Positions 13,152 through 45,700 of a DNA stretch of 64,000 nt are shown here, piece after piece (position 1 is the stretch's first letter; each line of letters starts with the position of its first letter). This stretch comes from Sphagnum compactum (taxonomy: Eukaryota). Where the stretch lies: NCBI GenBank assembly GCA_965153455.1, contig OZ234493.1, positions 16,420,213 to 16,484,212 on the forward strand. The letters are read 5' to 3'. The notes below the pieces were generated by a model, which saw only the letters and a list, made by a program, of their open reading frames with translations, ran no database searches and was not told the DNA's origin. A program made the translations under genes and the position numbers.

Positions 13152-16096
13152 ATGGGTCACTCGCATCATTATTCTCATGAAGCTGGCTTTCGTGTACGTT
13201 GCTCCTGCAAGCGAGCGACGGCCGTTGTGTGTGGGAGTAACGTCTTGGTGGTGCTGTACATGCTGCATTCCTTGCTACTCCCTCTGTATCTTACCCCTTC
13301 TTCCCATTCCTCCATCGTCCTCATCCGCCGTAACGGTTTGTGTTCTTTTCCCTCCCTTTTTTTTTCTCCATCCTCTTGTCTTTGGGGGCTTACAGTCTCA
13401 AAACCCTAATAGTTTCCCCTTAGTGATATGCAATCCATTTGATTCTCTCTTCCTCCTCCATGGTGACAGAAGATCGGTTTCATGATGATCTTTCCATGGA
13501 GAAGATCGCCGCCCTAGAGGGGAACTTGCACGTTATTTCCAGGAGACCAACCGAAGGATCTGTGAACAAACCCTAAAACTGTGCCCACATACCAAAGATC
13601 TGAAAAACTGACAGGAAGGTTGCACCACACTGGGATTGACAACAGCAAATTGGAGCTTTCTTGAGTGGTTTAGTTGAATTTCAGAGGTCATCCTTTGTGG
13701 TGTCAAAGGCATGACAATCCAAACTATGCTTTGATAATGGCTGTGACTTCTCTCCATCAGTGGAGTTTATGAGTTTGAGTGATGCAAGGGGCAGTTGAAT
13801 AATTCAGGCATGGGAGAGATTGCAATTTCATGGAAGATGGGGGATTGCAGGTACTTTGCAGCCAACAGTAATGAAATACACTCAAGCACAAATGAATCGC
13901 ATGAAGGAGGCGAATAAGGCACGGCAGGCTGCTCAGCCTCTCAAGCTGATCAAATTAGTGAGCATTTGCATCCTTTTTGAAGATTTGGTTTGTTGTGTGT
14001 ATTGCGTAATTGGTTTTTTTGCTCATGTTTTGCATCTCTCCTTTAAACTCAGGAGTGCTAACCAGTTTGCTTGGCTGGATGGGAAAAGGTAAAGGAGCTC
14101 CAACAAGAATCAGGAAGGGTGGCAGAGGACAGTCGCACATTGAATGCAGCTCATCAGAATGCAGCAGCAGCAGAGCTAGCCTCTCGTTTGAAAGCAAAGC
14201 TGTACAACCCAAACAATCAGCAAGGTCTGAGGCACAAATCTAGACGTCCCAAGACACTACCTTTCCAAGTTCGAAAACTCCATATCAATTGGGTTGATCT
14301 GCAATAATATGCCTGATCTCTTATCGTTATTAGATCCTTAAACCTATTGAGTCCTGAAGACTGAGTTTCCAAGTGTTTGCAGGATTAGACAAATGGAGGA
14401 GACAAAGGCTTAAATTGATCAAAAAAAGAGAAGAAGCTGTGCTGGCAACTGCACAAGAGTCAGGTCAAGAAAAAGGTGCAGAAAGATCATTATACATTTT
14501 TGTTTGTGCAACTTCAGGTTAATGCACATAACAAATCAATTTCTTTGTTTCTTTAAATCAAATGCACAGTGTGTCTGTTATTGGCAAGCACACCACCTTT
14601 TGCTGGGTTTTCTTTAAATGTAATGTGGCACTAGTTGAGAAATTTGCTCATCCCCTGAATTGGGTTTGCATCAGCAGAAGAGGTACCATTTGCTGAGGAA
14701 TTGGCAATTGTTGAAGCTTCAAGTCTGTTAGTTGAAGAGGAAGGGACTGGTCTGCTTCCAAGTGGAGCTGAGATAGGTAACCATGATACTGCCCTACAAT
14801 AATTTGTATCAGACCATCTGTCCTCCCATCATTTTATATGCTGCTAACCTCAAAGACAGGGTTTCTGTTTGAGACTGGAAAACCCTGCAGGCTATTAGGG
14901 TAATGTCTAACACTTCACATTTGATTGACACACAAGTGTAGGGTTTTAGATTGTCCACTGCCTACAAGTTTGAGTTTCCAGCAGCCTGGTTGCAGTTCAT
15001 TTGAGATTAAGAGTCATTGGATACAGATTACATCATCAGTCTGGTCAAGTTTTACACCATTTGATATCATTCCATGTGTCCATTGGAACGATTCTGTGCA
15101 TGCATTGGTGAGGGGTTGGAATTTGTGTGGAGTGATGTCATGACAACATAGACCAGCTGCTTTTGAATATGAAGCACAACTCCACAAGAATGTGATCTTG
15201 ACATATAAACCCTGATCTCCTAGATTTCTTCACTGCTTTAAAATCCTCCCTTAAGTAGATTCTCAATGTGGATGAGAAACTTGAGGCATTTAAATCCATG
15301 GTCTACTGCCTTTGTTCATGTGCATGAGTGCAGAAGATGGAATAATACCAGGGAGACCCCTGCCAGAAGAATGTCGTGCGGAGGCTCATACAGACTATGA
15401 TGGGGCAGCAGTGCGCTGGGGTCTGACATATCATGTTGAGAGTGCTGCAGACTGCTGTCAGGCATGTCTGGACCATGCACGTAGTGCTGAAGGAGATGGC
15501 AAAAAGTGCAATGTGTGGGTGTACTGCCCTTCTGAAGACGGCTGTTATTCTCCTGACATCTATGAGCACAAGCACCAAGAGTGTTGGTTGAAACAGGTCA
15601 GTTTTGCTATTCAGGATTGTCATGCATTCAATTGAAAGGTGCTTTGAAACTAAACGTTATCTCTGGTCTTCTCGTTTTTTCCTTTTTGTAAACCCTGCCT
15701 GCGAGTTTAAGCATAGGTACTTCACCCAAGAAGAATAAGCAGCAGCTGTGAGCATACTATCCTGTTGCTTGCTGTTTGTTGTAGCCATGATCATGAGATT
15801 GAGTTTTGCTGCATTTCAACTTTCAATACTCCTCCTTGACCCATCTTCTCAAGCAATTTGCAGAGCTCTAAGTTTCAAGTTCAGTGTGTTAGATTGTACT
15901 GAATATGTCTTGCGCTGCTCTACTTGATGCATCCTTGGGGAACCAAATGCACTTTCCTAAATGCTTGTGTTGTTGATGATGGCAGGCAGATGAGCCGAAG
16001 CTTAACTTCAAGGGGCGATATGATGAGGAATATCGAAATCAACATCCTATCGCCCCTGTCATTGTTCCCTGGGTTTCAGGGGTCATAAGGTTGTAA
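13152..16096 (+). CDS. Type II membrane-anchored protein with C-terminal Apple/PAN-like cysteine-rich domain; exons approx. 13152-13335, 13851-13957, 14089-14224, 14383-~14475, ~14675-14776, ~15334-15596, 15986-16096
   Basis: N-terminal hydrophobic anchor (CSCKRATAVVCGSNVLVVLYMLHSLL) and a coiled middle. C-terminus reads ECRAEAHTDYDGAAVRWGLTYHVESAADCCQAC...CNVWVYCPSEDGCYSPDIYEHKHQECWLKQ|ADEPKLNFKG...VPWVSGVI, a conserved plant family. Junctions are GT-AG; the middle exon limits are less certain. Confidence 0.87.
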
Positions 16097-26905: not shown

Positions 26906-29653
26906 ATGGAAGGTCGTAGCCGGTAAGTGATTCTCTTCCCTTCCCCCCCCCTTCTCTCTCTCTTTTCTGGTCCCTTATTGCGGTTCACGATTGTGCGATG
27001 TTTTGTTGCTTAGATCTGTGACTTCATTTTCTTCTCTGTGTGTCGAGAGGATTGATTAGCAGCGAGCGATGTTTTTTTCTGTTTGGATCTGTGACTTCCT
27101 TTCTTCTCTGTGTCGAAACGATTACTAGCATAGGATGTTTGATGTATCGATCCAGCGATGTTGCTGCTGCCTTAATGATGAAGAGTAGTAGTAAGCAATA
27201 GGATCTGCAGAAGGTAAATTAGAGGTGAGCAAGAGTGATTGGAGTTTGGAAAGTATGGCAAGTGCAGGGTGTTATGCAAGTTCTTCATGCATGGAGCGTG
27301 TTTGAAAGGAGAAGATTGCATGTTCTCTCATAGCTGGAGTGACCAGGCTAGCCAGGTAAGTAAAGAGCATCGTCTCTCCTAACAAGCTTCATGCATCAAA
27401 GTGTTTCCTTTCAGGAAATTATGCTCACAGCTTTCAATTTGCGCATGGCTTTGGTTTTCTCCTCAATTAGAACATTGTTTTTTCAGTGGTCCTGTCATGT
27501 GTGTGTACTGATTGTTGTATGATCATGTGCAGGTATGCACATTTTATCAGCGTGGCCTTTGTTCTTATGGCAGTCATTGCAGGTATGAGCATGTAAAACT
27601 CTCCCATCCAGTGTCAAATAATCCTCTCCTTCCCCTACCAAGACCTTCAGTGGTAGCTTTTAACTCATCTCCAGACACAAGTAGGGCAGAAGAGAGCTCA
27701 AGCAATACCCATACACAAAGTGCCTGGCAACTCACAGAAGGCAAGGCTAATCTGGGTCCCCGATTTCTGGAAGAAGATGATGAAAAGGATGTTGAAGAGA
27801 TTGAAATGCCAACGTCCAACGACCCGAGTGAGATGCCAATCTGCGCGTTTGCAGCTGCTGGCATATGCCCTCGGGGTGATAACTGCCCGCAGATTCATGG
27901 TGAATTGTGCCCAACTTGTGGGAAGCATTGTTTGCATCCATTTCGTCCATCAGAACGTGATAACCACAGCCAGCAGTGTGAACGTAACCAGAAGAAGCTT
28001 GAGGCACTTCGCAAGAGCCAAGAAATCGAATGCAGTGTCTGTCTGGAGCGGGTGCTTTCAAAGCCAACAGTTGCTGAGCGGAAATTTGGATTAATGTCAG
28101 GCTGTGATCATCCATTTTGTGTTGGCTGTATACGGGGTTGGCGGAGTGGTTCTCATGCACCAGGGATGGACATTGATACTGTTGTGCGGGCCTGCCCAGT
28201 TTGTCGAGTAGCTTCACATTTTATAGTCCCAAGTGTTGTTTGGTACTCAAGTTCGGAAGAAAAGGAGGATATAATCAACGGCTATAAGAACAAGCTCAGG
28301 TGTGTGCATGAGAACCTAAAGCTGTTTGTTCTATTTGATGTCCCTATCACGACTTGAGGTTTTATTACCCATCTGACATACTACTTGACAGATGGTAACC
28401 TGATACGTAATTGCCCTTTAAGGTCATACTCACCCTATAATTGATCAGTCTAATGACCAGCCAGCTGGTTGGATTTTGACTTGGAAGATTGGTGCAGCCA
28501 CTCTGGTAGGCTTGTCATGTGGCTGCACCCAGCGGTGACCATCAGTCTTTTATTTGGTTGGGTGCCTGATTTGTCAACATTTGTGTATATAGATTGTGCT
28601 CTGATTTGTCATAGGTGGGTGGTGTGTTGCACATTAAATGACTGGTGTATGCCCTCCTTTTCCATCCCTTGAACAATTCAAGCAATCAAGGAGATCAAGT
28701 GGACCCAAAAGTCCATATTGGTCTCTAGGTGTTTGCATTCTTATGTGAGAACATATAGAATGCTTTACCTTAGCTCCTGATGCACACACATGTAAAAATA
28801 CATGCACAATGTTTTTGTAATTGAATGTTAGGGGTGTATTTGTGTGTGCAGTGATATTGATTGCAAGTATTTTGACTATGGAAATGGAACCTGTCCTTTT
28901 GGAACTAGCTGCTTCTATAAGGTAAGGAAACCAGCTTTTTTTGTTCTCTGTCCTCTGTGCAACTCAAATTGTTATGTCAGAGTGTAGCTGACCCCCATGT
29001 GACCATGTTGTCTTAACACCATTTGACAACTCCAGTTGGCATCAGATGGTCCTGCTCAGGATTTTGCATATTTAGCTGGTTTCATATGTTGAATTTCCTT
29101 CATGTGCAGCATATGTTTAGAGATGGAAGTAGGGAGGAGGTGAAGTTACGTCACCTTGGTGCTGCTGATGGGAACACTGTCATTGCCAAAAATGTTCGGT
29201 AAGCTTTTCAGGCTCCCCTTGCTGAAAGGTTTTCTCCTTTTTTTTTGTCCGATCCTTAGGAGCTTTGTGGTTTTCATGAAATTCTTAACATCTTTGGTCA
29301 GGATGTAAGATGACCAAAGATGCATACATCATTTTAAGCTCAAGACTACCCTGCTGTGATTTTTTGTGGCTTCCTGACTGCAATCGTCCATGTTCTTTGA
29401 TATCAGACCTTAAGTGTGCTGCAGTTAGGTCAAGGGAGAAATTATTCTGGCAGATAAAGGGTTTGAGTGTTGCAACTTCTGAAAGCTTCTGCCCTCTCTA
29501 ATGTCGGAGAGGATTTCATTCTATTCTGCATTTTGAAGGTTATGTGCCACTTGTTGTAATGGTTTGCAGTTTTTGAATCCAATGTTGTTTTGATTTTGTC
29601 TTCATATGGACAGGTTATCAGACTTCTTGGACAGATTGGATATTGCCAGGTGA
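26906..29653 (+). CDS. MKRN: E3 ubiquitin-protein ligase makorin (C3H zinc fingers + RING); exons 26906-26922, 27268-27355, 27533-28299, 28852-28921, 29110-29198, 29614-29653
   Basis: C3H fingers [40 protein letters not shown] and [19 protein letters not shown]. Makorin Cys-His motif, [12 protein letters not shown]...[21 protein letters not shown]...CPVCR, and final finger [23 protein letters not shown]. Phase-consistent GT-AG junctions. Confidence 0.95.
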
Positions 29654-32458: not shown

Positions 32459-33244
32459 ATGTAATACATATGATTAGTTATTGTAAAAATTTGAGACAAT
32501 GGTTACAACATGGATTCCTTTCAAATCTATGAAGAATATGACTATCATTCCGAGTTTTAGTAATCTTCAAACCCATAATTAGAAAACTATTAATTTCCAA
32601 GAAAATTGTTTCTAATGTCATGAAATTTAATGTAAATTTCCATGCAATACAATCTATTCAAATAGTTGCACATTACAAACATTTCAAAGTATAACCTTTT
32701 TTTAAAAACTTTTTTACAAATATGTATGTGACCTTGGATGCAAGTAAGAATGGATACTTACAAAACCAATGAATAGGTGCCATTTTCCCAAGGCGAGATG
32801 TATTTAGTTATATTATTATCCACAACATATATTCCCCCCCCCCCCCCCCCCCCCCCAAATGTGGTGTGTTTATGTTTGTCGCATTGAAGATTCCATTAAA
32901 GTTGCTTTGATCAATTGCATCAATAATTTTGAATAAATGATATTTCAAATTCCATGCGCCAAAACATGAACTATTGTAGCATTGAAATGGAAGTACTCTA
33001 AATCCCATAAAAATTCTAAAAGATCTATGAAAAGTAATTGTGATAAGCGAATGATTAAGAAGGCCAAATCCTAGTAACAACAATTGTGTTGAATGACAAC
33101 ATATATTATAAAAAATTGTGAAACTTTGAGTTTATGGACCTATTGGAATACCTTTCCACATTTACAAAAACGATAAATTAATTAAATGGACAAATGTTAC
33201 ATTAAATATACATGTTGAATTTAATCATATAATGAATATACAAA

Positions 33245-36200
33245 TCACATCCTTTTGGAAGTGGAGCCAAATCTTTTCCATAGTGCGTTGAAAGGTTCTT
33301 GGATTAATGTGGCAATATATTGCAATCCTTTCTTTTTGTTCAATCCTTCCAAACGCTGCAAAACTTCTTGCATTTTCGGTCTTTGATTTGGGTCTTCCTG
33401 TAAGAAACAAATGTCATAAAAGTTAGATGTTTATTATATAATTGTTATACATTACAATCAAACCATGGCAAAATGCTCCAATAAATAGGACCATATGTTC
33501 ATGTCTCAATTTTCATAACATAATTTGAACATATATCCTTCAAAAAGGAGTGTAGAAACCAACTTATATTTGTATTCAACAACACAATTTTATGTTATTT
33601 GAAACTAGGATACTCAAATTGACTTTACATATCAATCATGCAAATGGTTTAAGGAATTCCAAATGAAATTGAATGTACCATTTGCATGTGCAAACCTTCT
33701 TAAGAAGTTTTACATTCATTAATCAATCCAATTTAACTTATTTCACTAGTAGAAAAAGCGTGGTTTAGTCACAAACAACATTTGCCACTAAAAGTTAACT
33801 TAGTAGCAAATGACAAATTAGGAACGACGCTAGTTGCAAACAACATATGAAATATTTGTTTTCATAGAATACACGTATGACAATTTTACACATGTATCCA
33901 AGGATGAGTTCTTGCGACTACACTTACAACTACAATGTACAGCAATATGTTCACACCTGGTAACCTAAGAATGTAACACATGGCATCATTTGAATTTTTT
34001 TCAACTATTCAATTAAAGCAATTTTATTGTGCCATGTGGTGGCTTAAGATTGAACGACGTGACAACTCAAAATTTATAATCATTTAAGGTTAATTTAAGG
34101 TTGGACCACTTATGATAGGCCAATTGGCACTTGAGCTAAGCCTAGGTTAGGCCACCTAACCTAAGTAAGTGCCTAATGTACCTAACCTGATTTCAAGGTA
34201 AACCATTTAAAATAGGCCATGTGGCACCTAGGCTATGCCTAGGCCACTTAGCCATTGTCTAGCTTAGGTAGGTAGGTACTTAGGTCTAGGTCTAAATTGT
34301 TACAACAAAATCCAATTTTATTTTAAATTTAACCTATTATGTGGAGCGTATGTGATTAGCTCCTCCCATATGGCAACTAAAAAAATTTAATGTGTTTACA
34401 CCAAATCAACCTATTTATATAGTTTGTAAATTTGAAATGGAAGACAAACAATATGGGATAAAATTTTATCTATAGCTCTTAGTCGCATAGTTCTAACCTA
34501 GTTGCAACTATTCTTTAAGATATACTATTACATAGCCTACCTACTAGGTAGCATAAGTTTTTACTAGGTAATAATTTAGATAATATTTATTGGAAGTCAA
34601 AATTTAAATAGTTTTAAAATAATTATTTATTTAAAATGCCTATTTAGATAGCCTCTAAATAAATATTTATAATTAAATAGGCCTATTAAGTAGCTAGTGG
34701 ATACGTAGGTATGTATGTAGGTACCTAATAAATAGCTAGGTAGCTAGGTAGATAAATGGTACATAGGTAGGTGTACATATTAGGTAGGTAGGGTATATGC
34801 ACCTAGTAAATAAATAGGTAGGTAGTAGGTAGGTATTTAGTAATTACGTAGGTAGGGATGTAAGTGGTATGTACATAAATACATAATAGGTAGGTATATG
34901 GTACATATGTGGGTACCTAGTAATTAAGTAGGTAGGTAGGTAATTAGGTAGGTAAGCATTTAGTAGGTAGGTATATACATATAGATAAATATGTATTATT
35001 AAATAATCTATATGTGTAGTTACTAGGTAACATATGTACCTTATGTACTTATAATGTAACTATTTTGGTTGCATGTGCAACTAAATGTATATATGATGTT
35101 GTAAAAATAAAAAAACATCATGAAAAATCAACCTATTGAAAAGATGAAATAGGTCCTAATTGCAACCTAGTTGAAAAGAAGACCAAAATCCATCCAAATT
35201 TGAAAATTAGTTTCAAAGGCAACCATTCATAGTTATAAGCGACATTTAGTCGCACATAGTCACACAAGGAATGGTTGCAAATGACAAGATTTCTATTAGT
35301 GTTTCATATTGTTTCAAATATTACATTGAATCCATGATTTTAGGTTTTTGAAATTTGCTTGACCACAAATTGAATGATAAAATAAAAGATTTGGCACAAG
35401 ATTTACCTTGATGCATTGAAGGGAAATTTGCAAAAATGATTTGGCTTCATTTCGATCAAACCCAACAATTGAATTATTAATTGCAACATCAAAAATTTGT
35501 TGAAATCCATCTTCTTCCTCTTGAACCTCTTGTACCCATTGGATAAAGTGGCGAATGTGAATTTCATTTCCATCTAAAGTCAATGGTGATCCATTCACAA
35601 GTCGAATCAACAATACTCCAAAGCTATACACATCACTTTTTGTTGATGCTTGATTTGAATGAATTTCTGGTGCCATATATCCGCTTGTTCCTGGCCTAGA
35701 AGTTGAAGCTAATGCAATCTGAATTTAAAATTTCAAAAATATCAATAATTTCAATGGGCGTTGCATGCATTGTCAAAATTCATAAAACCCATACCCAATA
35801 TGGTATAATACCAATAGGAAACTTGATTTTTTTTTAATCACAAAAGTTGCAATCCTTTTGTTATTACTTGTGCACACATAAAAAGAAATTTTGTAATATA
35901 AAATTTGTAATTTCATGAATTATTACATTAAGTGTTTTTCAAATATTCATTTTACATTGTGATTGTTTATCATATTTATTCCATGACCTATAATAATGAA
36001 AATATAAAATTATTAAATTGTGGCCCACAAGAGTGTTCAAATTTGCAAAGTTCATAATTGCACTAAAATATAATGCCCATGCATTTAATCAACAAAAAAA
36101 TAATGGTGGGGCACATACCACATTTTCATTCGTGCCATGTAAAATTTTTGCCAACCCAAAATCAGCCAATTTTGGGGTGTAATCCTTATCCAAAAGGATA

Positions 36201-38314
36201 TTTCCTGGTTTGATGTCAAGATGAACAATGGTTGGATCACATTTATGATGCAAATGTACCAATCCTCGAGCGACCCCTATAATGATGCATATTCGTTTGT
36301 CCCAATCCAAACGTTTATCTCCATCAAGCCATTTGTCAAGAGATGAATTTGAAATGTATTCATAGACCAACATGTGTTTTAAGCCTTTGATACAATAGCC
36401 CAAAAGATGAATCAAATTCATATGTCGAATTGATCCCAAGGTGTTCATTTCTGATACGAAAGATTTTTTTGCACCTTCATTATGTTCACCACTCCATTCC
36501 AAAACTTTAATCGCAATCGTAATGCCTTTCCAACAACTTTGATACACCTCACCATAGGCTCCTCTCCCCAAACTAGGTCCGAAATTCAATTCATCGTATG
36601 TAAAAGATCGAATACTCGAATTTAATGGCAACGATTCTATTATCGGTTGGTATTCATCGAACATCCATTTCAACCATTTTCGATCTTGTTCATCATTTGG
36701 TGTGAGATTATGAAGTTTATCGATCGCTTCCAATGCTGCTTGATATTTGTTTAAACTCCAATTCATGTGGGCATAAACTATTAAAGTGAATGCATTGTTT
36801 GGTTCAAGAACATGAGCCTTGTCAAGGTCCTCCAAGGCTCCTTGATAGTCATCCAGGTTCCTTTTAATAGCTCCACGATGTCGCAAAGTGAATGCGTTGT
36901 TTGGTTCAAGAACATGAGCCTTGTCAAGGTCCTCCAAGGCTCCTTTATAGTCATCCAACATCCTTTTGACCTCTCCACGAACACTCAAAGTCAATGCATT
37001 GTTTGGTTCAAGAACATGAGCCTTGTCAAGGTCCTCCAAGGCTCCTTGATAGTCATCCAACATCCTTTTGACATCTCCACGATGTCGCAAAGTGAATGCA
37101 TTGTTTGGTTCAAGAACATCAGCCTTGTCAAGGTCCTCCAAGGCTCCTTGATAGTCATCCAACAACCTTTTGACCTCTCCACGACTCCTCAAAGTGAATG
37201 CATCATTTGGTTCAAGAACATCAGCCTTGTCAAGGTCCTCCAAGGCTCCTTGATGGTCATGCAATATCCTTTTGACATCTCCACGAGCACTCAAAGTGAA
37301 TGCATTGTTTGGTTCAAGAACATGAGCCTTGTCAAGGTCCTCCAAGGCTCCTTGATAATCATGCAACATCCTTTTGACCTCTCCACGACTCTTCAAAGTG
37401 AATGCATTGTTTGGTTCAAGAACATGAGCCTTGTCAAGGTCCTCCAAGGTTCCTTGATAGTCATGCAACATCCTTTTGACCTCTCCACGAACACTCAAAG
37501 TGAATGCATTGTTTGGTTCAAGAACATGAGCCTTGTCAAGGTCCTCCAAGGCTCCTTGATAGTCATGCAACATCCTTTTGACCTCTCCACGACTCCTCAA
37601 AGTGAATGCATCATTTGGTTCAAGAACATCAACCCTGTCAAGGTCCTCCAAGGCTCCTTGATAGTCATGCAACATCCTTTTGACCTCTCCACGAACACTC
37701 AAAGTGAATGCATCGTTTGGTTCAAGAACATTAGCCTTGTCAAGGTCCTCCAAGGCTCCTTGATAGTCATCCAACATCCTTTTGACCTCTCCACGAGTGC
37801 TCAAAGTGAATGCATCATTTGGTTCAAGAACATGAACCTTGTCAAAGTCCTCCAAGGTTCCTTTATAGTCATCCAACATCGTTTTGACCTGTCCACGAAT
37901 CCTCAAAGTGAATGCATTGTTTGGTTCAAGAACATCAGCCTTGTCAAGGTCCTCCAAGGCTCCTTGATAGTCATCCAACTTCCTTTTGACCTCTCCACGA
38001 TGTCGCAAAGTGAATGCATCGTTTGGTTCAAGAACATTAGCCTTGTCAAGGTCCTCCAAGGCTCCTTGATAGTCATCCAACATCATTTTGACAATTCCAC
38101 GATTCCTCAAAGTGAATGCATCGTTTGGTTGAAGAACATCAGCCTTGTCAAGATCCTCCAAGGCTCCTTGATAGTCATCCAACATCCTTTTGACAATTCC
38201 ACGAATCCTCAAAGTGAATGCATCGTTTGGTTGAAGAACATCAGCCTTGTCAAGGTCCTCCAAGGCTCTTTGATAATCATCCAACATCCTTTTGACCTTT
38301 TCACGAACATTCAA
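33245..38314 (-). CDS. TPR-array / RLK-Pelle-type non-RD Ser/Thr kinase fusion; exons ~38314 (first ATG 38287)-36119, 35718-35407, 33397-33245; 5' end uncertain
   Basis: 15 near-identical 34-aa TPR units plus one divergent capping unit, then a kinase with LGRGAYGEVY, IAIK, HLDIKPGNILLD, ADFGLAK, GTSGYMAPE, KSDVYSFGVLL and CIK|EDPNQRPKM. Both introns are phase-0 GT-AG. About 877 aa from ATG 38287 with no internal stop. Confidence 0.88.
33744..35301. mobile_element. Non-autonomous CACTA (En/Spm) element in the last intron of the TPR-kinase gene
   Basis: Starts CACTAGTAGAAA and ends TTTCTATTAGTG, with 3-bp TSD TTT on both sides. Subterminal tagtcgca/tagttgca repeats, internal (TAGG)n-like low complexity and no ORF. 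Confidence 0.88.
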
Positions 38315-38356
38315 AGTGAATGCATTGTTTGGTTGAAGAACATTAGCCTTGTCAAA
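36683..38356 (-). repeat. Homogeneous coding tandem array, 102-bp unit, about 16 units (TPR)
   Basis: Plus-strand unit caaagtgaatgcat.gtttggttcaagaacat.agccttgtcaaggtcctccaaggctccttgatagtcat.caacatccttttgacctctccacga repeats at an exact 102-bp period. Confidence 0.97.
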
Positions 38357-38953
38357 GGTTGAAGAATATCAACCTTGTCAATGTTCTCCAAAGCTCCTTG
38401 ATAGTCATTTGACATCCCTTGTACATTTTCATGAGTCTTCAAAGGGATTGCCTTGTTTTGTTCAAGAACATCACCCTTGTCAGACTCCTCCAAAGCTCCT
38501 TGATAATCATCCAACATTCTTTTGACCTTTGCACGAATTCACAAAGTGAATGCATCGTTTGGTTCAAGAACATGAACCTTGTTAAGGTCCTTGAAAACTC
38601 TTTCATAATTGTTTAACACATGTTTGACATATTAATAAAAATCCCTAAAATATGTGCAATGCTTGGTTTAATAACATCATGTTTGTCAAAGTCTTCAAAA
38701 GTTTTTTCATCTTCCTTGAAGACCTTTTTTTTCATGTGCACAAGTTCTTAAACTTAATGCACTTTTGGTTCATTGAAGATAAACCTTGTCAAGGTCTTTC
38801 AAGGCTACTTGATAATCTTTCAACACCTTTTTTTCATATTTTCCACGTGTGTTATTTAATTGATTCCATTGTTTAATTCATGAATACTAGCCTTGTGAAC
38901 GTCTTCCATGGTTTTTTCATAAGCATTTCATTTGTCAAGAACATGAAATAATG

Positions 38954-38955
<2 letters not shown>
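38357..38955 (-). pseudogene. Degenerate upstream TPR units (about 5-6) with a stop and frameshifts
   Basis: Recognisable DYQGALE/DLNKVHVLEPNDAFTL*/EDFDKHDVIKP/DYQVALKDLDK fragments lie in shifting frames. A 26-nt partial duplication at about 38330-38380 puts them out of frame with the main ORF. Confidence 0.8.

Positions 38956-38996
<41 letters not shown>
38956..38996. repeat. (TA)n microsatellite
   Basis: About 20 uninterrupted TA units. Confidence 0.95.
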
Positions 38997-38998
<2 letters not shown>

Positions 38999-41900
38999 TT
39001 GAACATGAAACAAAATAATTGCGATAGAAAGTTTTTTTTGGGGATATTCCACCAACCTATGTCACCTTACTTTCATATAGATTTGAAATGTAATCATTAC
39101 TTACACAATGATTAGCATACATAATTCTTATCATTGATGAGTATTCCACTTAGTTTAAAGAATGTGATTTGGTAATAAACATTTCATTACGTTATGCAAT
39201 TTGTTCAATTCAATAAATGTAGATAAAAGATGTGCGTCCAAATCAATATATATTTTTCCATTTCTTGATGGAGCTAAGGTGGCAAGCATCCCTAGGCAAA
39301 ATTTGATTTAACTAACAACATTATGTCAAGGAACTCTAAAAATTTGGAACCAATAGGCATAGGTGTAACAACCCTTTCACCCTAAACATATTTAAGAATC
39401 ACTTTTAAGCGAAGAATTTCCAAAAAAAGGAATTTGCAACAAAATAACATGTATGTAAAAACTTGTGTTGCGTTTTGGTGATTTTTGCCCAAAAAATTGA
39501 TTGATCATTATTTTGTATCATGTTTTACTATTGAAATTTCTCTTCCCATTCCCTTGTCATGCAACTTGAATGTTTACAAAATTGATTTGGTCGAAACATA
39601 ATGGACAAATGATAAATTACAAAGAACAAATTATTGAATCATTTAAAACATGCATTCATGTAGTTAGTTTTCATGTTGATATTCCATTTCAATGTGATTT
39701 GAATGACAAACTTGATCATTGTTGAACAATGTTGTTGCACAACTCCATCACGTGCATATTTACATGCATATGCACAAACCTTGGCAAACATTACTATTGT
39801 AGTACTCTATTTATGTGAAATCCATAACTTTTAATTGTTGCAAAACTATTTCGAGTAGCTAGCTAATGCGAGTCCCAATTTTGTTCAAATTAAACTCTTT
39901 AATATAATCCCGTTTGAAACCTAAAAATATCATATTCATGTTTTAGTTATTCACTCATTCCATTCATCACAACCTTCATACCTTTCACACCTTGATTAAG
40001 AACACAAACTTAACTTTGACGTTGCAAGACATATTGAGTTCAAGACGATAGAAGTTTGTGTGTGAAACACATACCTACAAGTTTTGAGAAATTGCAAAAG
40101 ATGTGATGTTCAAATGACCTTGATAGTTTTTGTTGTCTTTTAGCGTTGGTTGCTAGCCCAATCAAATGCATGTGAACACTATGGCAATCAAGAAAAACAC
40201 CAAGTTAACCCACCTTAATAGAAAATCATGGTAGATGAGTATTTGTGCAAATTTGAATCATTATACAATCGTTACTTGAGGTCAAATATTCATAACATTA
40301 CTAATGCGTTCAAGGACATGGAACCAAAGTTTTGGTGTTTGAGACCTACCAAGTTTGACATAAAAGACGTGATGATATGTGAAAAGCATTTGCACGTGGT
40401 GATTGGATGATGAACACTTCTCTTGTTGTTGCGTTGAGCCACAAAGCCGTATAAACATATGTGAAGAGATTGATGGCAATAGTGCAACAAGGGAACCAAC
40501 CTTGATAAAAGTTTGTAGCAAACTGGGGGATGCAAATTTGGGCCAAGGGAGAATTAGTCCATTGGATTCCTTGCACTTATGCCGGACTCGTGAACATCTT
40601 GGAAGGTGGTTCTGATTAGAGGTTGAGAGAAAGGATCCAAGTGGTCCTTCCAGGATGGTGCAAACCGTGTGCCATAATTTAGGCTGGTTAAAGTTTTCTG
40701 TGCTACCCGCTCAGAACTTTACTCCGGAATATGTTATTGCAGCTGGATGCTTTTCTGTCTTTTCTGTTGTCGTCTTGTGCTTTCACATTGCTCAAGATTG
40801 GAAGTCTTTAATAAAGCGACGCAGTCTGTGCGTGAGTACTAGACCTGCAACTTCCTGTGATCACTGATTTTTCTGGCTATAAGATAATGGATGCAAGTGG
40901 TCATTGATGGATTGCACCGTCCATGTGTCAGCAAAGAAAAGTGAGGCCGGTTAGCAATCCTCAGTCGGAACTTTCCTCTTGTATAGAGAATATCAACTCG
41001 TTGCTTTGTGTAGCTTTTTCTCCCCCTCATTACCTGCCGGGAAACATTGTTCATAATTTCATTTACCATAAAGTCATGGCACGTGCCCCATGTTGGTGCT
41101 TGGCCCCAAACTTGAGCATGTGTAAGTTTTAGACTTGAAAATTTTCCTGTGACCGGTGCTTTTCAGGCATTACAGAATTGATGGATTTGGTCATTGTTTG
41201 ATAATGCACAACCTGAGTCAGCAGATATAACTGGGGTTGTTAGAGCTGGAACTAGTGAAATTGTCATGGCTGAAATTCGCCATTTTGCTATGAATGAAAG
41301 TCCCAAGCAACATGGTCGAGGGAACTTTTTGAAAAAATCCTTAAAAAATTGTCACATTTTCAGGAAGAAGAGAGCTATGAAATAGCCAAAACAAACTAAA
41401 TTGAAGGATTTGGGCAGATTTCTAACTTTCTTCTTTTGAAATCCCCATATTTAGTTAATAGGTTCTATTGGTTTGCCAACATGTAATAAGATTGCCATAA
41501 TTTTTACTTCTTTATTTGTCTTGTAATCAGACCTGACTAAATCCTCTTGTGGCTGATTGCCTGTTTTGATGCGACATGAGAAAATTGAAAAAAAGGAACA
41601 GCGGCTGGACCCTCTGAATTGATCGTTTGTCAGCAAAGAAGACTTATTAGTGGAGGTAGGCCTGAGGGCTCAAAATGCAATCTAAATTTTCAGAGCGCCA
41701 CCTGGCATCATTTGAATGAGGCCTCTTAGTGACCATATTAAGCCCAAAAAATGTTAAATCTGAACTCAGACACCCTGATTTAGTCTAACCATGGGATATT
41801 TGTAATGTTTAGAAATAATTTAAATGGACTAGCTTGGGTTCACCCAAAGGCTCTCAAGTCACTGTGCCCTTGTTGGCTGATTGAATATCATTGAAACTAC

Positions 41901-42647
41901 TTAATTGCTGGATGGGAATTTGAAAAAGTTTCTTAGAGTCCACAATTTTTTTATAGAAACAATCAAGGCATTGAGGCTAGTGTTGCCCTGTTATTGGGGA
42001 ATTGTTTTTTGATAAATATGTTGGGTACTAATAAAGGGCACAATGACAGGCTATTGCAACCTACATGCCGGTTCTCACTTGCAGCAATATTTATTTTGTA
42101 AAAAAAAAAGGTGAGCTAGAGTTGCACAAGAAGTCCAAGACCATATAATTCATAGGGCTCTTGTGAAAATCCCCTCCGATCTCATTTGTATCATTGAATC
42201 CATCATAGACATGTCTGTGGACATCAGTTGCAGAAAGTGTCCAGGTGCTGAAGAAGACTTATGTATGCCAGTGATTTTGCAGCTGCTGCTGGCTTGTTTA
42301 ACCCCCCCCCCCCATGTAGTAGGCTAAGTAGTATTCAGTTTTCTAGGCAGCTTGGTCTACAACGTTAGAGAACAACAGTCTGTTAAGATCCTGTAAATAG
42401 TCCAACTGTTCCAAATTAGTACTGTTCTTTTTTCCAAGTCTCATGCTGTGACTAGCAATCGTTCAGTGTGTTTGTAGTTGCTGGAAACAACAGGCTATGT
42501 GAAATTTTCGAAGTCCTCACCTCTTCTTAATAGGTAATGAACTAGGTAATATTGCAGAGGAAGCCTGTAATATCATGATCCGCTCTGTCTGTGTCGACTC
42601 TCTCTAGTGACCCAAGCTGACAACGTTTAGGTTAGTGCTCCTAGGAA

Positions 42648-42783
42648 TGGCTTAGCCATGTACAGGGTCCTAAACCCTAGAAGATGCTTATTGCATGATT
42701 AGATCGGGAATGCTTTGGCTTAGCCATGTACAGGGTCCTAAACCCTAGAAGATGCTTATTGCATGATTAGATCGGAAATGCTT
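42648..42783. repeat. Near-perfect 68-bp tandem duplication
   Basis: tggcttagccatgtacagggtcctaaaccctagaagatgcttattgcatgattagatcgg[g/a]aatgctt occurs twice with one mismatch. Confidence 0.95.
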
Positions 42784-45700
42784 GTCAGTGTATTTCTGTC
42801 ATCCTCAGCTGGTCTGTTTTGCTTTCATATGTTTGCTTTGGGGTTAGTCCCCTGATTTGTTTTGGGAAAGCCTTCTGACATGACTTTGTGCTCTGCAGAC
42901 GGACTTGATAGCTGCAGAGTTCAATGGAGGGCCACTGGATGGCGAATACTATCAGCATTCCTCCTTCACACCTCTTGAAGCAGGATTGGTACAGGAGGGA
43001 ACAAATTTTCTTATGGAAGAATACACATTTAGACTTTCTGTTCTCTATTTTAAGGACTTGGGTTAGTTAGATAAAAGTGTAGGTGACTTGCTGCCTTCTC
43101 GAATTGAAGGTCTTGTGCAAGATGGGTCAATAAAAGACGGCGTTAGGCCTACCTCCACTCCAGGTCCCAGAAGGGACCAACTAGTTGGCCCATTGAAGTG
43201 CTCCCCAAGTAAAGTGGCCCATTTGAGAACTTGCCTTTGACATACATACAATATACTAAGGCAACAGAAACGGTTTGGGTGAGCTGTTGAATCTTCATCA
43301 CATGCTCACTGGTCATGCCTGTAGTGGAGTTGGGCATACAATAGAGAAATCGGTAAATTCAGGGGGAGTTTCACAGGGTGTGTCATACCCTATTAATTTT
43401 TTCGCCTTGAGTTCCAGCGGTCCATAAAGTCCCCTGACTGTGGTCGGTTTTGGAAAAAGACGGGCTGGGAAGAGGGGTTGCCCACGTGGGTGCGCATTTA
43501 ACTGGCTTAAAATGGGGTGGACAGTCTTGGGGGTGGACAGTCCAAGACTGGGTTGAATAGGTGGACAGTCTAAGAAGTTGAAAATATCAACTTTTGGATT
43601 GGGGAGGGGAGGCGAGGGCGTTGGGGGAGGCATTTTTGGGATTTGGACGGTGGGTGAGGGGATTTGGGTGCGGTTTTTTCTTTCCTGAAGGATGCGTGGG
43701 TTAGGGGTTTAGGAGGGTCATTTTATTTTTATTTTAAGTTTTTTTCTTGGAGGGGGGGAGGGGGTGGGGTTCTAGGGGTCTTAATAGGTGGAGGTGGGAA
43801 AGGATCATTTCTAAAAGTAGCACTATTTGCATTCAGAAACAGAGGTCAAGAGTGTGGTATTCAGATTGGTTGATATCTAGCATCAACCTGCACCAAAAGA
43901 ACTTTCTTTTTTGAGCATCAATGTTCCTCACAATCATGTTGCAACTTAATGTCGTTGCTCTCAATATTTGACATCCGCTGTTGATTTTCTGGTGTTGATT
44001 TAAGGCTTTCATGTTGTTAAGCTCCTGAGTCTCAAATTTGAAATGCACCTCATCAAAGTCTTCCTTCACAAAGGTCCCTTTTGCAGTGTCTTGCTCACAG
44101 ACCATTGCTATTAACTTGCTTTAGATCTCATTGAGCTCATAATTCTTTATATCTGAAGATTTTTGCATAACTAACATGTCTTCTGGCAATGCCATGATTT
44201 TTATATTAATTATGCTTCTCATGATATTGAATTGTTTAGTCGATTGTACAACTTCAATGTTTGCATTTGTGATAGCCTTTTTCTTCATGTCCACCATCAA
44301 GATTTCTATTAGATGTGAAATATGGGTGTCCAAGGTTTCTATATTGCAATGAAGAGCTATGACCTTCCACAACTAAGCTTCATTTTGCTGTTGGAGTACA
44401 CTGCAGCTACATTGGGATATCTTTGCACTGCTTCGTTTTTGATATCAAAGTGGTCTTTCCATGACTGTGGGAGTCCTTCATGGTCACCACTTGTGCCAGT
44501 CAAACTTTAACATCCATGGATGTGGCACCTCCCAACCGGGGGTTCGGTGAAGCATACCAAGGATCCCAAGTACTATGGAAATCCTACCAAATAATCATTT
44601 CCCACACTGTTTGACACTTTCTTAATGGCACAATACATAGAGATTGAATCATTCAGGCTGCAAGACTTTTCAGATTACCAGCTTATAAAAAGCATATTGC
44701 TTTAGACTGTGGGTGGAAAATTTCGACCCATCTATTAGCAGATTGGGACAACCCATGTCTGTGTGTAAAGATTTGGAGGAGAAGATTTCTGAAGGGATCT
44801 GTCATGAGAAGAAGCTCTTGCAGTTTGACATAAGAGTAGTCAGAATGTGCTAGAATTTGGGATTCAACATATGCTGGAAAACCAAGGATAGGATTTTTCA
44901 AAATGTAGAATCATTTGAAAAATGACATAAATGGTATGCTGCAATCTCCCTTTATCCTCTCCCCTGAACAACTGCCTTTTCCTGCTTTGAGTTCCCAACT
45001 ATGCAAAAAAAACCTTATTTTCCTTGCAAGGTGTTGGAGGCAAAAATGGTAGACAGGGAAGATGCATTCAAGTCCCTTCCCCTCTTGCTCAAAAGAAAAG
45101 CCTTATTTTCTCTGCTAGGTCACAGATGCTAAAATGTACACATGGGAATTGCATTTTATTAGCATGGCCTTCTTCAAGAGCTTTCCCCTCTTCAGACATC
45201 ACACTTCGAAAAAATCTTTATTTTTCCTGAAAGGTGATCAAAACAAAAATGTACAAAAGGAAATTTCATTTTGTTCCCAGGGTCTTCACCAATTTTCCCC
45301 CGCTTCAGCTTCAATGCTGTGTAAAAACCCTTCCTTTCCCCTAAATGAAAAAAGAATAGGGAGTTTGCATTTCCCATTCAATTGCAAAGGGGATTCCTTG
45401 AGATTCTCAGATGTTCAAACAGAGGATCCCCCACAAGTTTCTTGTATTGGGTGACGCAGCACCCACACTGGTAGCATGGTAAGAACCCAAATTTTCATTT
45501 AAGTTGCTTCCGAATATTACAGGTGCACATGCTTAGGTTACAATAGGCTCTGTGAGATCAAATCTAAGATTTTTTGGGCTTAATACGGTCACTAATTGGC
45601 CTCGCTAAAAAAGGTGCAGGTATCAGTGGTAGGAGCTGGTTCACCCTGGCCGTGAGGTGTGTAAGATGAGGGCGGAGCCTGAGTCGCACTCACTGACCCT

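What the first reader, a model, noticed from the sequence alone, without database searches (positions are those of the whole stretch)
33245..38314. Soluble TPR-array / non-RD Pelle kinase fusion: candidate new class of intracellular receptor kinase
Seen: 16 in-frame TPR units join through a ~25-aa non-hydrophobic linker to a complete kinase spread over three exons. There is no signal peptide, TM helix or NB-ARC/NACHT domain in the open frame, and the catalytic loop is HLDIKPGN. Established: non-RD RLK/Pelle kinases are strongly associated with pattern-recognition receptors (FLS2, EFR, XA21), and highly internally conserved TPR/WD40/ANK arrays act as sensor domains in fungal NLR-like proteins. 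Inference: this is a sensor-kinase using a recombinable TPR array in place of an LRR ectodomain. I do not know this architecture as a characterised plant system.
Basis: partly seen in the sequence, partly recalled or inferred. Interest (0 to 1): 0.9.

Follow-up and report, generated by a model that had tools for sequence, protein, structure and literature searches.

The report
Peat-moss TPR-array kinase fusion gene
This is a real, transcribed and correctly spliced peat-moss gene that joins about sixteen near-identical TPR repeats to a receptor-type kinase, and it belongs to a large, fast-changing gene family that evolves like immune sensors, although no function has been tested.

Summary
On the minus strand, 15 regular 34-aa TPR units and one degenerate unit run through a ~35-aa linker into a complete kinase in three exons (877 aa from the first in-frame Met). 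There is no TM, signal peptide or NB-ARC. The catalytic loop is HLDIKPGN. PolyA RNA reads confirm both predicted junctions exactly and cover the TPR-kinase exon continuously.

The closest named homologues are Sphagnum hypothetical proteins. A metagenome scan gave 145 related stretches. All 80 fetched loci carry a TPR array directly 5' of the kinase, with roughly 0 to 41 in-frame units. The kinase nests in the non-RD SD-2b/LRK10L group.

Unit variation concentrates at canonical TPR positions 5, 6, 9, 12 and 13, the ligand-contact face. There pN/pS is 1.19, against 0.59 at the other positions.

This copy carries a private 26-bp duplication that frameshifts off its first two units. Its 5' end was not found.

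The sensor-kinase reading is plausible but untested. The gene is best called a new variant of plant kinase-fusion proteins. The earlier-findings index returned no Sphagnum note and nothing on this family.

The parts
38833..41900 (-). Upstream non-coding region shared by the gene family (promoter and/or 5' leader). The boundary near 41900 is approximate.
   Evidence: 9 to 35 of 80 related loci match each 250-bp bin from about 39250 to 41750, and 0 to 2 match the bins from 42000 to 43000. Divergence is about as large as kinase dS, and no conserved protein-like ORF is present. RNA depth is 5-16 up to 39600, the end of the laid stretch.
38369..38832 (-). Decayed 5' TPR units that are out of frame with the main ORF.
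   Evidence: tblastn matches of 34-58% identity reach 38832. Repeat family D6 has copies up to 38766-38832. Stops and frameshifts are visible in the sequence.
38311..38517 (-). 68-codon upstream ORF. It starts at the family's ancestral-type first-unit Met (ATG 38517-38515) and ends at a stop at 38311-38313.
   Evidence: ORF 38311..38538. In relative L013 the same Met heads an ORF that runs on into the kinase.
38331..38381 (-). 26-bp tandem duplication that shifts the frame between the first two units and the rest of the array.
   Evidence: TRF reports period 26, 2.0 copies. The 26 extra bases are absent from all 6 aligned relatives: L062, L013, L012, L014, L021, L005. No indel was reported here in the RNA reads.
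36758..38287 (-). TPR units 1-15 (34 aa, 102 bp each), starting at the first in-frame Met of the main ORF.
   Evidence: Repeat register. Pairwise unit identity is 76-98% at the nucleotide level. Pfam TPR_1 and TPR_2.
36656..36757 (-). 16th, degenerate TPR unit (SLNKYQAALEAIDKLHNLTPND...).
   Evidence: Register. This unit is conserved in the homologues.
36578..36655 (-). Conserved linker or juxtamembrane-like segment (EYQPIIESLPLNSSIRSFTYDELNFG).
   Evidence: A search with the 71-aa junction that includes this segment finds only family members: 19 representatives.
36119..36577 (-). Kinase part of exon 1: GxGxxG, the VAIK Lys, the catalytic loop HLDIKPGN (36200-36223) and DFG.
   Evidence: Pfam Pkinase 6.9e-29. 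Motifs.
35719..36118 (-). Intron 1 (400 nt, GT..AG), partly retained in RNA.
   Evidence: Joint seen in 34 reads. Intron depth is 11.8, against 54-62 in the flanking exon bins.
35407..35718 (-). Exon 2: activation segment through subdomain X (GTSGYMAPE, DVYSFG).
   Evidence: Pfam Pkinase 7e-10. tblastn 100%.
33398..35406 (-). Intron 2 (2009 nt). It carries about 1.5 kb that only 14-15 of 80 loci share.
   Evidence: Joint seen in 31 reads. Per-bin locus counts. Other paralogues have an intron of about 450 nt here.
33245..33397 (-). Exon 3: subdomain XI (EDPNQRPKM...), the C-terminal tail and the stop codon TGA at 33245-33247.
33118..33244 (-). 3' UTR (approximate).
   Evidence: Read depth of 8.5-24 and a pile of read starts at 33118. 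Family homology ends near 33100.

Best explanation
The locus is one member of a large, young gene family. Among named sequences the family occurs only in Sphagnum. It encodes cytosolic proteins in which a long array of near-consensus TPR repeats is fused, through a conserved ~35-aa juxtamembrane-like linker, to a non-RD RLK/Pelle kinase.

Shown:
- The gene is transcribed from the minus strand and spliced as predicted.
- The kinase descends from the SD-2b/G-lectin/LRK10L group of receptor kinases. It has lost the ectodomain and membrane anchor.
- The family evolves by birth and death and by gain and loss of 102-bp units.
- Framework TPR positions are under purifying selection. The positions that contact ligands in solved TPR-peptide complexes carry an excess of amino-acid changes.

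Inferred:
- The TPR solenoid is a variable ligand-binding sensor for a foreign or modified-self protein or peptide in the cytosol.
- Binding changes kinase output. Because the kinase is non-RD, it probably needs a partner kinase or another helper.
- The family therefore works as an intracellular non-self or immune sensor, analogous to the kinase-fusion resistance proteins of cereals and to the repeat sensors of fungal NLR-like proteins.

This copy has lost its first two units to a private 26-bp duplication. If it makes protein at all, it must start at the next unit's Met (38287), giving the 877-aa product.
For: Gene structure and expression.

Family:
- 12 of the 120 listed proteins form the close group (62-87% identity). 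11 carry TPR plus kinase Pfams, and every one with an organism name is from Sphagnum.
- 145 related stretches were found in metagenome contigs, and 80 were fetched. 79 of the 80 show a same-strand TPR array 5' of the kinase in the tblastn map; L015 gave no array hit there.
- The 81 kinase sequences (80 loci plus the window) form 62 clusters at 98% nucleotide identity.
- Open frames range from kinase-only to 1977 aa with about 41 units.
- Three loci (L039, L070, L073) have a second TPR-like array downstream in the same locus, about 6, 3.6 and 2 kb from the start of the first array.

Selection:
- Kinase dN/dS against the window has a median of 0.50 (range 0.37-0.72, 80 loci).
- 48 of 80 loci keep all five core kinase motifs with no stop.
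- Among 985 unique units from 74 loci, the six highest-entropy positions are canonical 6, 5, 9, 12, 15 and 13.
- Within-locus pN/pS is 1.19 at the predefined contact set 2, 5, 6, 9, 12, 13 (locus bootstrap 1.02-1.39), against 0.59 (0.55-0.65) elsewhere, over 61 loci.
- That contact set comes from PMC1261162 (passages).

Kinase placement: the clade has SH-aLRT 100, its sister moss clade 99, and both sit inside the SD-2b/LRK10L group at 99. The best solved relatives by sequence are BAK1, BRI1, a lectin RLK and IRAK4.

Paralogue expression: L046 is a contig with both introns removed relative to genomic L035.
Against: - No functional datum of any kind exists: no ligand, no kinase assay, no infection or induction data.
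- pN/pS of 1.19 at the contact positions is only just above 1 and fits relaxed constraint almost as well. The pairwise counts are not independent, ignore gene conversion and use uncorrected distances. The higher value for positions 5, 6 and 9 (1.56) was chosen after seeing the data.
- Within the window's own array, overall pN/pS is 1.04.
- This copy's ancestral start is frameshifted. RNA coverage continues at least 1.2 kb upstream with no intron. The main ORF therefore sits behind many upstream ATGs and may be poorly translated or not translated.
- 23 of 80 loci have stops in the kinase. The nearest relative, L062/L004, has most of its array out of frame.
- The quick tree carries a long-branch warning for the moss-Sphagnum join.
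Confidence: 0.55

Rival explanations
1. This particular copy is a transcribed pseudogene or a decaying family member. The 26-bp duplication cut the array off from its start codon, so the RNA is a non-coding or NMD-prone transcript, whatever the rest of the family does.
For: - The 26-bp insertion is present only in the window among 7 aligned sequences.
- The ancestral-type Met now heads a 68-codon uORF.
- RNA depth of 5-16 extends upstream to at least 39600 with no joint.
- Intron 1 is partly retained.
- Pseudogenes are common in the family: 23 of 80 loci have kinase stops, L062/L004 have a broken array, and the spliced L046 transcript has a stop at the exon 1/2 junction.
Against: - The remaining 877-codon frame, about 2.6 kb in three exons, has no stop or frameshift and keeps every core kinase motif.
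- Every unit carries a Met at the same position, so a shortened array can still start translation.
- The uORF stop lies 24 nt before the main ATG, which allows reinitiation (inference).
- The exons are well covered, at depth 24-75.
Confidence: 0.2
2. The family are ordinary cytoplasmic signalling kinases. Their TPR array is a docking scaffold for conserved partners (chaperones or other kinases), as in the BSK kinases. Unit-number and sequence variation would then be neutral by-products of a slippage-prone tandem repeat.
For: - TPR arrays are generic protein-docking modules.
- Overall pN/pS among units is near 1 in the window (1.04) and 0.77 family-wide.
- The units are close to the TPR consensus and match thousands of unrelated TPR proteins.
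Against: - A neutral repeat would not keep framework positions at pN/pS 0.59 while concentrating change on the ligand-contact positions.
- A conserved docking role does not predict dozens of paralogues with roughly 0 to 41 units and many pseudogenes.
- The domain order is the reverse of BSKs, and the BSK TPR model PF25575 was not among the 23 Pfam hits.
Confidence: 0.13
3. The proteins are decoys or guardees rather than receptors that signal by themselves. The kinase or the TPR array would mimic a host target of pathogen effectors, and its modification would be read by a separate NLR. This model has been proposed for cereal kinase-fusion proteins.
For: PMC10260397 proposes this model for kinase-fusion proteins (passages). 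A 2026 preprint abstract describes sensor kinase-fusion proteins paired with NLRs (listing and abstract only). Non-RD kinases generally need partners (PMC3426755, passage).
Against: No NLR gene or NB-ARC motif lies in the 64-kb window or in any of the 80 loci, so no genetic pairing is visible. The evidence here cannot separate this model from the best explanation, which it overlaps.
Confidence: 0.12

Closest known systems
Kinase-fusion and tandem-kinase resistance proteins of Triticeae (Sr43, Lr9, Yr36, Pm4, Snn3 and others)
   Same: Both are soluble proteins with no membrane anchor in which an RLK/Pelle-type kinase is fused to an unrelated domain. The cereal genes behave genetically like intracellular immune receptors (PMC10260397, passages; PMC10260399 and PMC13600239, listing and abstracts).
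   Different: The cereal fusion partners are DUFs, vWA, START, MSP, C2 or a second kinase, not a long repeat array. PMC10260397 states that such genes appear unique to Triticeae. Here the host is a moss, the partner is a 16-unit (family-wide roughly 0 to 41) TPR array N-terminal to the kinase, and no resistance function is known.
G-type lectin / SD-2b and LRK10L-2 receptor-like kinases
   Same: This is the kinase's closest group in the tree (SH-aLRT 99 for the enclosing group). The non-RD catalytic loop is shared: HLDIKPQN in SD2-5, and HCD, HFD or HYD in the others. A juxtamembrane-like F-T-Y-x-E-L motif precedes the kinase (that this motif is typical of RLKs is recalled).
   Different: There is no lectin, S-locus or PAN ectodomain and no TM helix. 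Identity to these kinases is only 37-41%.
Highly internally conserved TPR/ANK/WD repeat sensors of fungal NLR-like (STAND) proteins
   Same: Shared features are near-identical tandem repeats, repeat-number variation, and variable sites on the concave TPR face (PMC4986451, passages; compare).
   Different: The fungal proteins have a NOD (NACHT or NB-ARC) domain between the effector domain and the repeats, which is absent here. The fungal TPRs are the 42-aa PF13374 type, whereas these are classical 34-aa units. PMC4986451 reports that such conserved repeats are rare in Viridiplantae (0.4%).
BSK kinases (RLCK-XII, brassinosteroid-signalling kinases)
   Same: Both are plant RLK/Pelle cytoplasmic kinases that carry TPRs. 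A BSK cluster appeared among weak Atlas look-alikes (score 0.84, rank 21).
   Different: BSKs have the kinase first and a short C-terminal TPR domain (PF25575). Here a long array comes first, PF25575 was not hit, and the kinase groups with SD-2b/LRK10L. No BSK sequence was in the tree.
Moss kinase-NLRs (Pkn-NB-ARC-LRR)
   Same: This is a bryophyte lineage-specific use of a kinase in a putative intracellular immune receptor (PMC11218826, passages).
   Different: Those proteins have NB-ARC and LRR domains. No NB-ARC was found here, and no NB-ARC-containing protein was among the 120 best kinase hits.

Membership tests
RLK/Pelle (IRAK) kinase family | The kinase domain is most similar to plant RLK/RLCK and animal IRAK/Pelle kinases. 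| tested here: met
   The best solved relatives by sequence are BAK1 (8e-46), BRI1, a lectin RLK, IRAK4, SYMRK and BIK1. The tree places it inside plant RLK subfamilies.
Non-RD kinases | The residue before the catalytic Asp is not Arg. | tested here: met
   The window reads HLDIKPGN. 75 of 80 related loci read H[L/F]D.
SD-2b / G-type lectin RLKs | The kinase falls in the SD-2b/LRK10L group. | tested here: met
   The enclosing branch has SH-aLRT 99, but this is a quick tree, the sister relation to LRK10L is only 86, and there is a long-branch warning.
SD-2b / G-type lectin RLKs | B-lectin, S-locus glycoprotein or PAN ectodomain, plus a signal peptide and a TM helix. | tested here: not met
   None of these is among the Pfam hits. 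The maximum 19-residue hydropathy is 1.31, inside the kinase. The gene is therefore not filed as a member.
BSK / RLCK-XII | N-terminal kinase followed by the C-terminal BSK-type TPR domain (PF25575). | tested here: not met
   The order is TPR then kinase. PF25575 is absent from the 23 Pfam hits.
BSK / RLCK-XII | The kinase clusters with RLCK-XII. | not tested
   No BSK sequence was available for the tree. No BSK chain was among the 60 listed of 81 PDB matches.
NLR / STAND receptors | Central NB-ARC or NACHT NTPase domain. | tested here: not met
   No Pfam hit. No P-loop motif in six frames of 728,720 bases. No NB-ARC-fused close relative among the longer proteins.
Plant kinase-fusion proteins (functional class) | A soluble kinase fused to a non-kinase domain in one transcript. 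| tested here: met
   RNA reads are continuous across the TPR-kinase exon and both junctions. Spliced paralogue contig L046.
Plant kinase-fusion proteins (functional class) | Confers pathogen resistance. | not testable with these tools
   No phenotype or infection data are available.
Highly internally conserved repeat sensors (Dyrka et al. criteria) | At least 85% amino-acid identity between repeats over at least 100 aa. | tested here: inconclusive
   Three-unit stretches (about 102 aa) match other parts of the array at 77-87%. Only the best pair passes 85%. Nucleotide identity is 91%.
Highly internally conserved repeat sensors (Dyrka et al. criteria) | Repeat-number variation, and variable or positively selected sites on the concave face. 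| tested here: met
   Roughly 0 to 41 units among loci. The top-entropy positions are 5, 6, 9, 12 and 13, with pN/pS of 1.19 against 0.59. The variation is between loci and species, not shown within a population.

The most novel reading that the evidence does not exclude
Peat mosses may have evolved their own NB-ARC-independent class of cytosolic immune receptors. In this reading a shuffling, hypervariable TPR solenoid is wired directly to a non-RD receptor-type kinase and expanded to dozens of genes. That would make it the first kinase-fusion receptor family outside the cereals, and a plant counterpart of the repeat sensors of fungal NLR-like proteins.
Probability: 0.35. Interest if true: 0.8.

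Novelty: new variant of a known kind. Interest (0 to 1): 0.62.

Why it matters
Intracellular immune recognition in plants is known almost entirely from NLRs and, more recently, from cereal kinase-fusion proteins. One of the papers that cloned such a gene says they appear unique to Triticeae (PMC10260397). A moss family built differently, from a repeat array plus a non-RD kinase, but showing the same evolutionary signs would suggest that soluble sensor kinases arose more than once in land plants. Those signs are expansion, pseudogenes, unit shuffling and change concentrated on a binding face.

Such a family would also give a tractable set of candidates for how Sphagnum, a keystone of peatland carbon storage, deals with its dense microbial partners and pathogens. 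It is also a natural case of consensus-like TPR arrays with variable binding positions.

In public genomes the members are currently labelled hypothetical or 'TPR repeat protein'. Six full-text searches found no description of the family. Subscription journals and paper supplements were not visible.

Tried and rejected
- Own genome: none is held for this window, so copy number per genome could not be counted.
- Upstream coding exon or extra N-terminal domain: the 2-3 kb upstream of the array is shared by paralogues, but only about as much as synonymous sites. 'Conserved' ORFs appear in several frames and on both strands and have no Pfam hit. I read this region as non-coding.
- Transposon carriage of the ~8.8-kb family unit: no terminal direct or inverted repeats were found at its ends. 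This was not pursued further.
- Protein Atlas: only generic kinase clusters below 0.9 came back, which is uninformative.
- TPR-only homology search for an NB-ARC-TPR donor: no NB-ARC protein was among the 120 listed. The hits were family members, TPR-only proteins, bacterial TPR proteases and kinases, and Glomeromycotina TPR kinases. Their kinases are RD type and 24-32% identical, so these are convergent fusions.
- Search for longer forms: no close relative was found.
- Earlier findings of this scan: nothing on this genome or family. One note on a fungal kinase with a TPR tail was not used.
- 5' end of the transcript: not found. Coverage runs to the edge of the laid stretch, and there is only a weak pile of 5 read ends at 38485.
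- Structure prediction and complex prediction were not run. The tools return no coordinates, so the variable positions could not have been mapped, and no binding claim is made.
- Metatranscriptome and guessed-RNA contig runs X1-X3: they hold related pieces, and X1 holds both joints as contigs. Because they are contigs of mixed samples, they show presence only.

Full report
**1. What is in the sequence**

The minus strand of 36089-38368 is one open frame of 759 codons. Tandem Repeats Finder finds a 102-bp unit, 15.4 copies, 91% matches, with no indels, at 36783-38355. Pfam on the exon-1 translation gives TPR_2 at 3.7e-54, TPR_1 at 2.3e-52 and Pkinase at 6.9e-29 (residues 598-747). The next exon continues the kinase profile (positions 155-241, 7e-10).

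GT..AG boundaries lie at 36118/35719 and 35406/33398. Joining the three exons in a script gives 904 sense codons and one terminal stop. The product is 877 aa from the first in-frame Met at 38287. In 34-residue register it has:
- 15 regular units (consensus MLDDYQGALEDLDKAxVLEPNNAFTLxxRGxVKR);
- a degenerate 16th unit;
- a conserved segment, KWLKWMFDEYQPIIESLPLNSSIRSFTYDELNFG;
- a kinase with GRGAYGEV, the VAIK-type Lys, HLDIKPGN, DFG, GTSGYMAPE and the subdomain XI Arg.

The most hydrophobic 19-residue window scores 1.31 and lies inside the kinase. The N-terminus is acidic. I therefore see no TM helix or signal peptide, but this is a crude hydropathy test and not a dedicated predictor. The kinase occurs only once in the 64-kb window.

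**2. It is expressed and spliced as predicted**

A stranded polyA RNA-seq run with the same species label (X24, raw reads) was laid on 33000-39600.
- The joint 35718->36119 (400 nt skipped, CT..AC on the plus strand) is shown by 34 reads from 16 start sites.
- The joint 33396->35406 (cut +1, so 33397/35407; 2009 nt skipped) is shown by 31 reads from 21 start sites.
- A contig run (X1) holds both joints.
- Depth is 54-75 over the kinase parts of exons 1 and 2, and 13-52 over the TPR array, with no joint inside exon 1.
- Virtually all reads have the first mate on the plus strand, as expected for a minus-strand RNA in the usual stranded library.
- Intron 1 is partly retained (depth 11.8).
- About half of the reads carry alternative bases at several exon-1 sites (for example 36258, 36326, 36412). 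This suggests a second allele, homeologue or very close paralogue.

The 5' end was not found. Depth of 5-16 continues to the end of the laid stretch at 39600 without any joint.

**3. The 5' end of this copy is damaged**

Upstream of 38368 the TPR-like sequence goes on to about 38832, but with stops and frame changes. Aligning this region with six relatives shows that the window alone has 26 extra bases, a tandem duplication at about 38331-38381.

In relative L013 the Met that corresponds to window 38517 heads an ORF that runs through 18 units into the kinase. In the window that Met now opens a 68-codon ORF ending at 38311-38313, 24 nt before the main ATG. The RNA reads report no indel there, so the duplication is real in the expressed sequence.

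Every TPR unit has a Met at the same position. The family's published gene models likewise start at 'MLDDYQGALEDL' inside a unit. A protein could therefore still start at 38287, but this is not shown.

**4. It is one of many**

*Proteins.* The closest proteins (62-87% identity over the kinase) are 12 entries. 11 have TPR plus kinase Pfams. One is a Sphagnum balticum model with LRRs, a remnant TPR and the kinase. All those that carry an organism name are from Sphagnum fallax, S. tenellum, S. balticum or S. magellanicum and are labelled hypothetical or 'TPR repeat protein'. The next hits drop to 50% identity or less.

*Loci.* One scan of metagenome contigs gave 145 stretches encoding relatives, and the best 80 were fetched. 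In 79 of the 80 loci the tblastn map shows TPR-like DNA (0.3 to over 6 kb) directly 5' of the kinase on the same strand; L015 gave no array hit there. The open frame continuous with the kinase holds from 0 to about 41 units. Examples are L021 at 1977 aa, L022 at 1503 aa, L049 at 1341 aa and L001 at 1308 aa (unit counts come from a motif pattern and are approximate).

*Frame starts.* Most frames begin inside a frameshifted or stopped unit. Telltale out-of-frame readings such as TKQCIHF and RIINEPSW show this.

*Array length.* Among relatives at kinase dS of about 0.07-0.11 the array is 2.05 kb in the window, 2.3 kb in L005, 2.6 kb in L013, 3.8 kb in L062 and at least 4.2 kb in L001.

*Clusters.* The 81 exon-1 kinase sequences form 62 clusters at 98% and 42 at 95% nucleotide identity. 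The samples probably hold several species, so this is not a per-genome count.

*Tandem genes.* Three loci (L039, L070, L073) have a second array downstream in the same locus, starting about 6, 3.6 and 2 kb after the start of the first array, which suggests tandem genes.

*Paralogue expression.* L046 matches genomic L035 in three blocks with both introns removed. Paralogues are therefore transcribed and spliced too, although that one has a stop at the exon 1/2 junction.

*Extent of the shared unit.* It spans window ~33,100 to ~41,900 and ends abruptly just past the 3' end of the gene. The shared 2-3 kb upstream diverges about as fast as synonymous sites and holds no convincing conserved ORF.

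*Distribution.* A search of 1.84 billion representative proteins with the 71-aa TPR-kinase junction found only 19 hits, mostly fragments. The only named cluster member is from S. jensenii. Within what these databases hold, the family looks confined to Sphagnum.

**5. Which kinase**

By sequence, the best solved structures are BAK1 (8e-46), BRI1, a lectin RLK, IRAK4, SYMRK, PBL2 and BIK1. This places the kinase in RLK/Pelle.

A quick maximum-likelihood tree was built with 53 kinase domains picked from the 120 hits, LG+G4, SH-aLRT support only. In it:
- the window groups with the Sphagnum proteins (100);
- that clade is sister to a small moss clade that includes a Ceratodon protein (99);
- both sit inside the group formed by SD-2b/G-type lectin, LRK10L-2 and WAK-LRK10L kinases (99);
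- CRK, CrRLK1L, LRR-I, RLCK-VII and the others lie outside.

The program warns that the moss-Sphagnum join is between long branches. Labels come from database names, some of which sit on multi-kinase proteins.

The whole group lacks the Arg before the catalytic Asp: HLD in SD2-5 and the moss relatives, and HCD, HFD or HYD in the others. 75 of 80 family loci read H[L/F]D. The non-RD state is thus inherited, not a special feature of this gene. The general association of non-RD RLKs with microbial detection, and their need for partner proteins, is stated in PMC3426755 (passage).

**6. How the family evolves**

*Kinase.* dN/dS against the window has a median of 0.50 (0.37-0.72; dS 0.07-0.59; 80 loci). 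57 of 80 loci show no stop in the aligned kinase and 23 show at least one. 48 of 80 keep all five core motifs by strict patterns with no stop in exon 1. This is weak purifying selection with frequent gene death.

*TPR units, window only.* Within the window's 15 units, pN/pS is 1.04 overall, and variation is concentrated in unit codons 27, 28 and 31.

*TPR units, family.* Pooling 985 unique units from 74 non-identical loci, the highest-entropy positions are unit 28, 27, 31, 34, 3 and 1. With Pro at unit position 20 equal to canonical Pro32, these are canonical positions 6, 5, 9, 12, 15 and 13. (The second column printed is one too low.)

*Comparison with solved TPRs.* Magliery and Regan report that positions 2, 5, 9, 12, 13, 33 and 34 are the most variable and lie on the concave face. 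They also report that HOP uses positions 2, 5, 6, 9, 12 and 13 to bind its peptides (PMC1261162, passages). Five of my top six positions fall in that six-position contact set. A hypergeometric calculation of my own puts the chance of this at about 1e-4.

*Within-locus comparisons (61 loci with at least 4 units).*

| Position set | pN/pS | Bootstrap over loci |
|---|---|---|
| Predefined contact set (2, 5, 6, 9, 12, 13) | 1.19 | 1.02-1.39 |
| Positions 5, 6, 9 (chosen post hoc) | 1.56 | 1.33-1.82 |
| All other positions | 0.59 | 0.55-0.65 |

38 of 61 loci have a ratio above 1 at the contact set, against 5 of 61 at the rest.

*Caveats.* Pairs are not independent. Gene conversion is ignored. Distances are uncorrected. 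1.19 is close to neutrality.

*Parallel.* The pattern parallels the highly conserved TPR, ANK and WD repeats of fungal NLR-like proteins. There, repeat-number polymorphism and concave-face variation were described, and such repeats were found to be rare in Viridiplantae at 0.4% (PMC4986451, passages). The internal-conservation threshold of that paper (85% over 100 aa) is only marginally reached here: 77-87% between three-unit stretches.

**7. What it is not**

- No NB-ARC or NACHT domain: no Pfam hit, no P-loop pattern in six frames of 728,720 bases (window plus 80 loci), and no close relative among 85 longer proteins.
- Not a BSK: the domain order is reversed and PF25575 was not hit.
- Not a membrane receptor.
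- Other TPR-then-kinase proteins exist, from unnamed eukaryotic sources and from Glomeromycotina fungi. Their kinases are RD type and 24-32% identical, so these are independent fusions.

**8. Most likely mechanism**

*Shown:* a soluble fusion of a variable TPR solenoid and an apparently complete non-RD RLK/Pelle kinase, transcribed as one RNA. The family shows expansion, pseudogenes, unit gain and loss, and change concentrated on the ligand-contact face.

*Inferred:* the TPR groove binds a variable cytosolic ligand, either microbial or modified host protein. Binding alters kinase signalling, probably with a partner. The family then serves non-self or immune sensing. The closest working analogy is the cereal kinase-fusion resistance proteins, which are soluble and thought to sense effectors, possibly with NLR guards (PMC10260397, passages; abstracts).

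I put this reading at about 0.55. The alternatives are:
- this copy is a transcribed pseudogene (0.2);
- the family is a plain signalling scaffold (0.13);
- it is a decoy guarded by an NLR (0.12).

**9. Novelty**

Six full-text searches found no paper describing Sphagnum or moss TPR-kinase fusions. The library lacks most subscription journals, so 'not in print' holds only for these searches.

I rate the finding as a new variant of a known kind (plant kinase-fusion proteins and repeat-sensor receptors). It is well supported as an observation and as a family, but untested as to function.

Noticed in passing
window 33398-35406 (intron 2), especially 34690-34980: Intron 2 is 2009 nt here but about 450 nt in most paralogues. 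The extra ~1.5 kb is shared by only 14-15 of 80 loci and contains short TAGGTAGG-rich direct repeats. It may be an old insertion.
   Followed up: partly
window 36258, 36326, 36365, 36408, 36412: About half of the polyA RNA reads carry a second base at these exon-1 sites (for example 37 of 55 reads at 36258). A second allele, a homeologue or a near-identical paralogue is co-expressed.
   Followed up: no
P0004 (Sphagnum balticum protein model, 727 aa): It has the same kinase clade and the same last degenerate TPR and linker, but NLR-type and plant-type LRRs stand in place of the TPR array. This is either a domain swap or a fused gene model.
   Followed up: partly
P0046, P0047, P0049 (Ceratodon and unnamed moss-like proteins): The sister kinase clade (44-49% identity by BLASTP, HLDVKPQN loop) carries an N-terminal region of about 580 aa with no Pfam hit and no TM-type domain listed. 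This may be another soluble repeat-kinase fusion in mosses.
   Followed up: partly
P0121, P0123, P0126, P0132, P0141, P0145, P0151, P0153; P0139, P0140, P0149, P0168, P0211: These are unrelated TPR-array plus RD-kinase fusions from unnamed eukaryotic sources and from Glomeromycotina fungi. They share 33-57% TPR identity with the window's array but only 24-32% kinase identity, so the architectures are convergent.
   Followed up: partly
L035 / L046: A paralogue whose fully spliced transcript contig has an in-frame stop exactly at the exon 1/2 junction. It is an expressed pseudogene or uses another acceptor.
   Followed up: partly
window 27512-28357 (+): An ORF with CCCH zinc fingers and a RING finger (zf-CCCH 5.2e-12, zf-RING_2 4.2e-5). 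It is probably an exon of an unrelated neighbouring gene.
   Followed up: no
window 15294-15635 (+): An ORF with a PAN_4 domain (1.1e-6). No kinase other than the one studied was found in the window, so it is not obviously an S-domain receptor kinase.
   Followed up: no
window 38956-38996: A perfect (AT)20 microsatellite lies just upstream of the decayed TPR units. RNA reads seem cut there.
   Followed up: no
window ~33,100 and ~41,900: Family-wide homology stops abruptly right after the 3' end of the gene (from 44 to 4 loci within 250 bp) and fades about 3 kb upstream. No terminal repeats were found, so how the unit is copied to dispersed sites is unexplained.
   Followed up: partly
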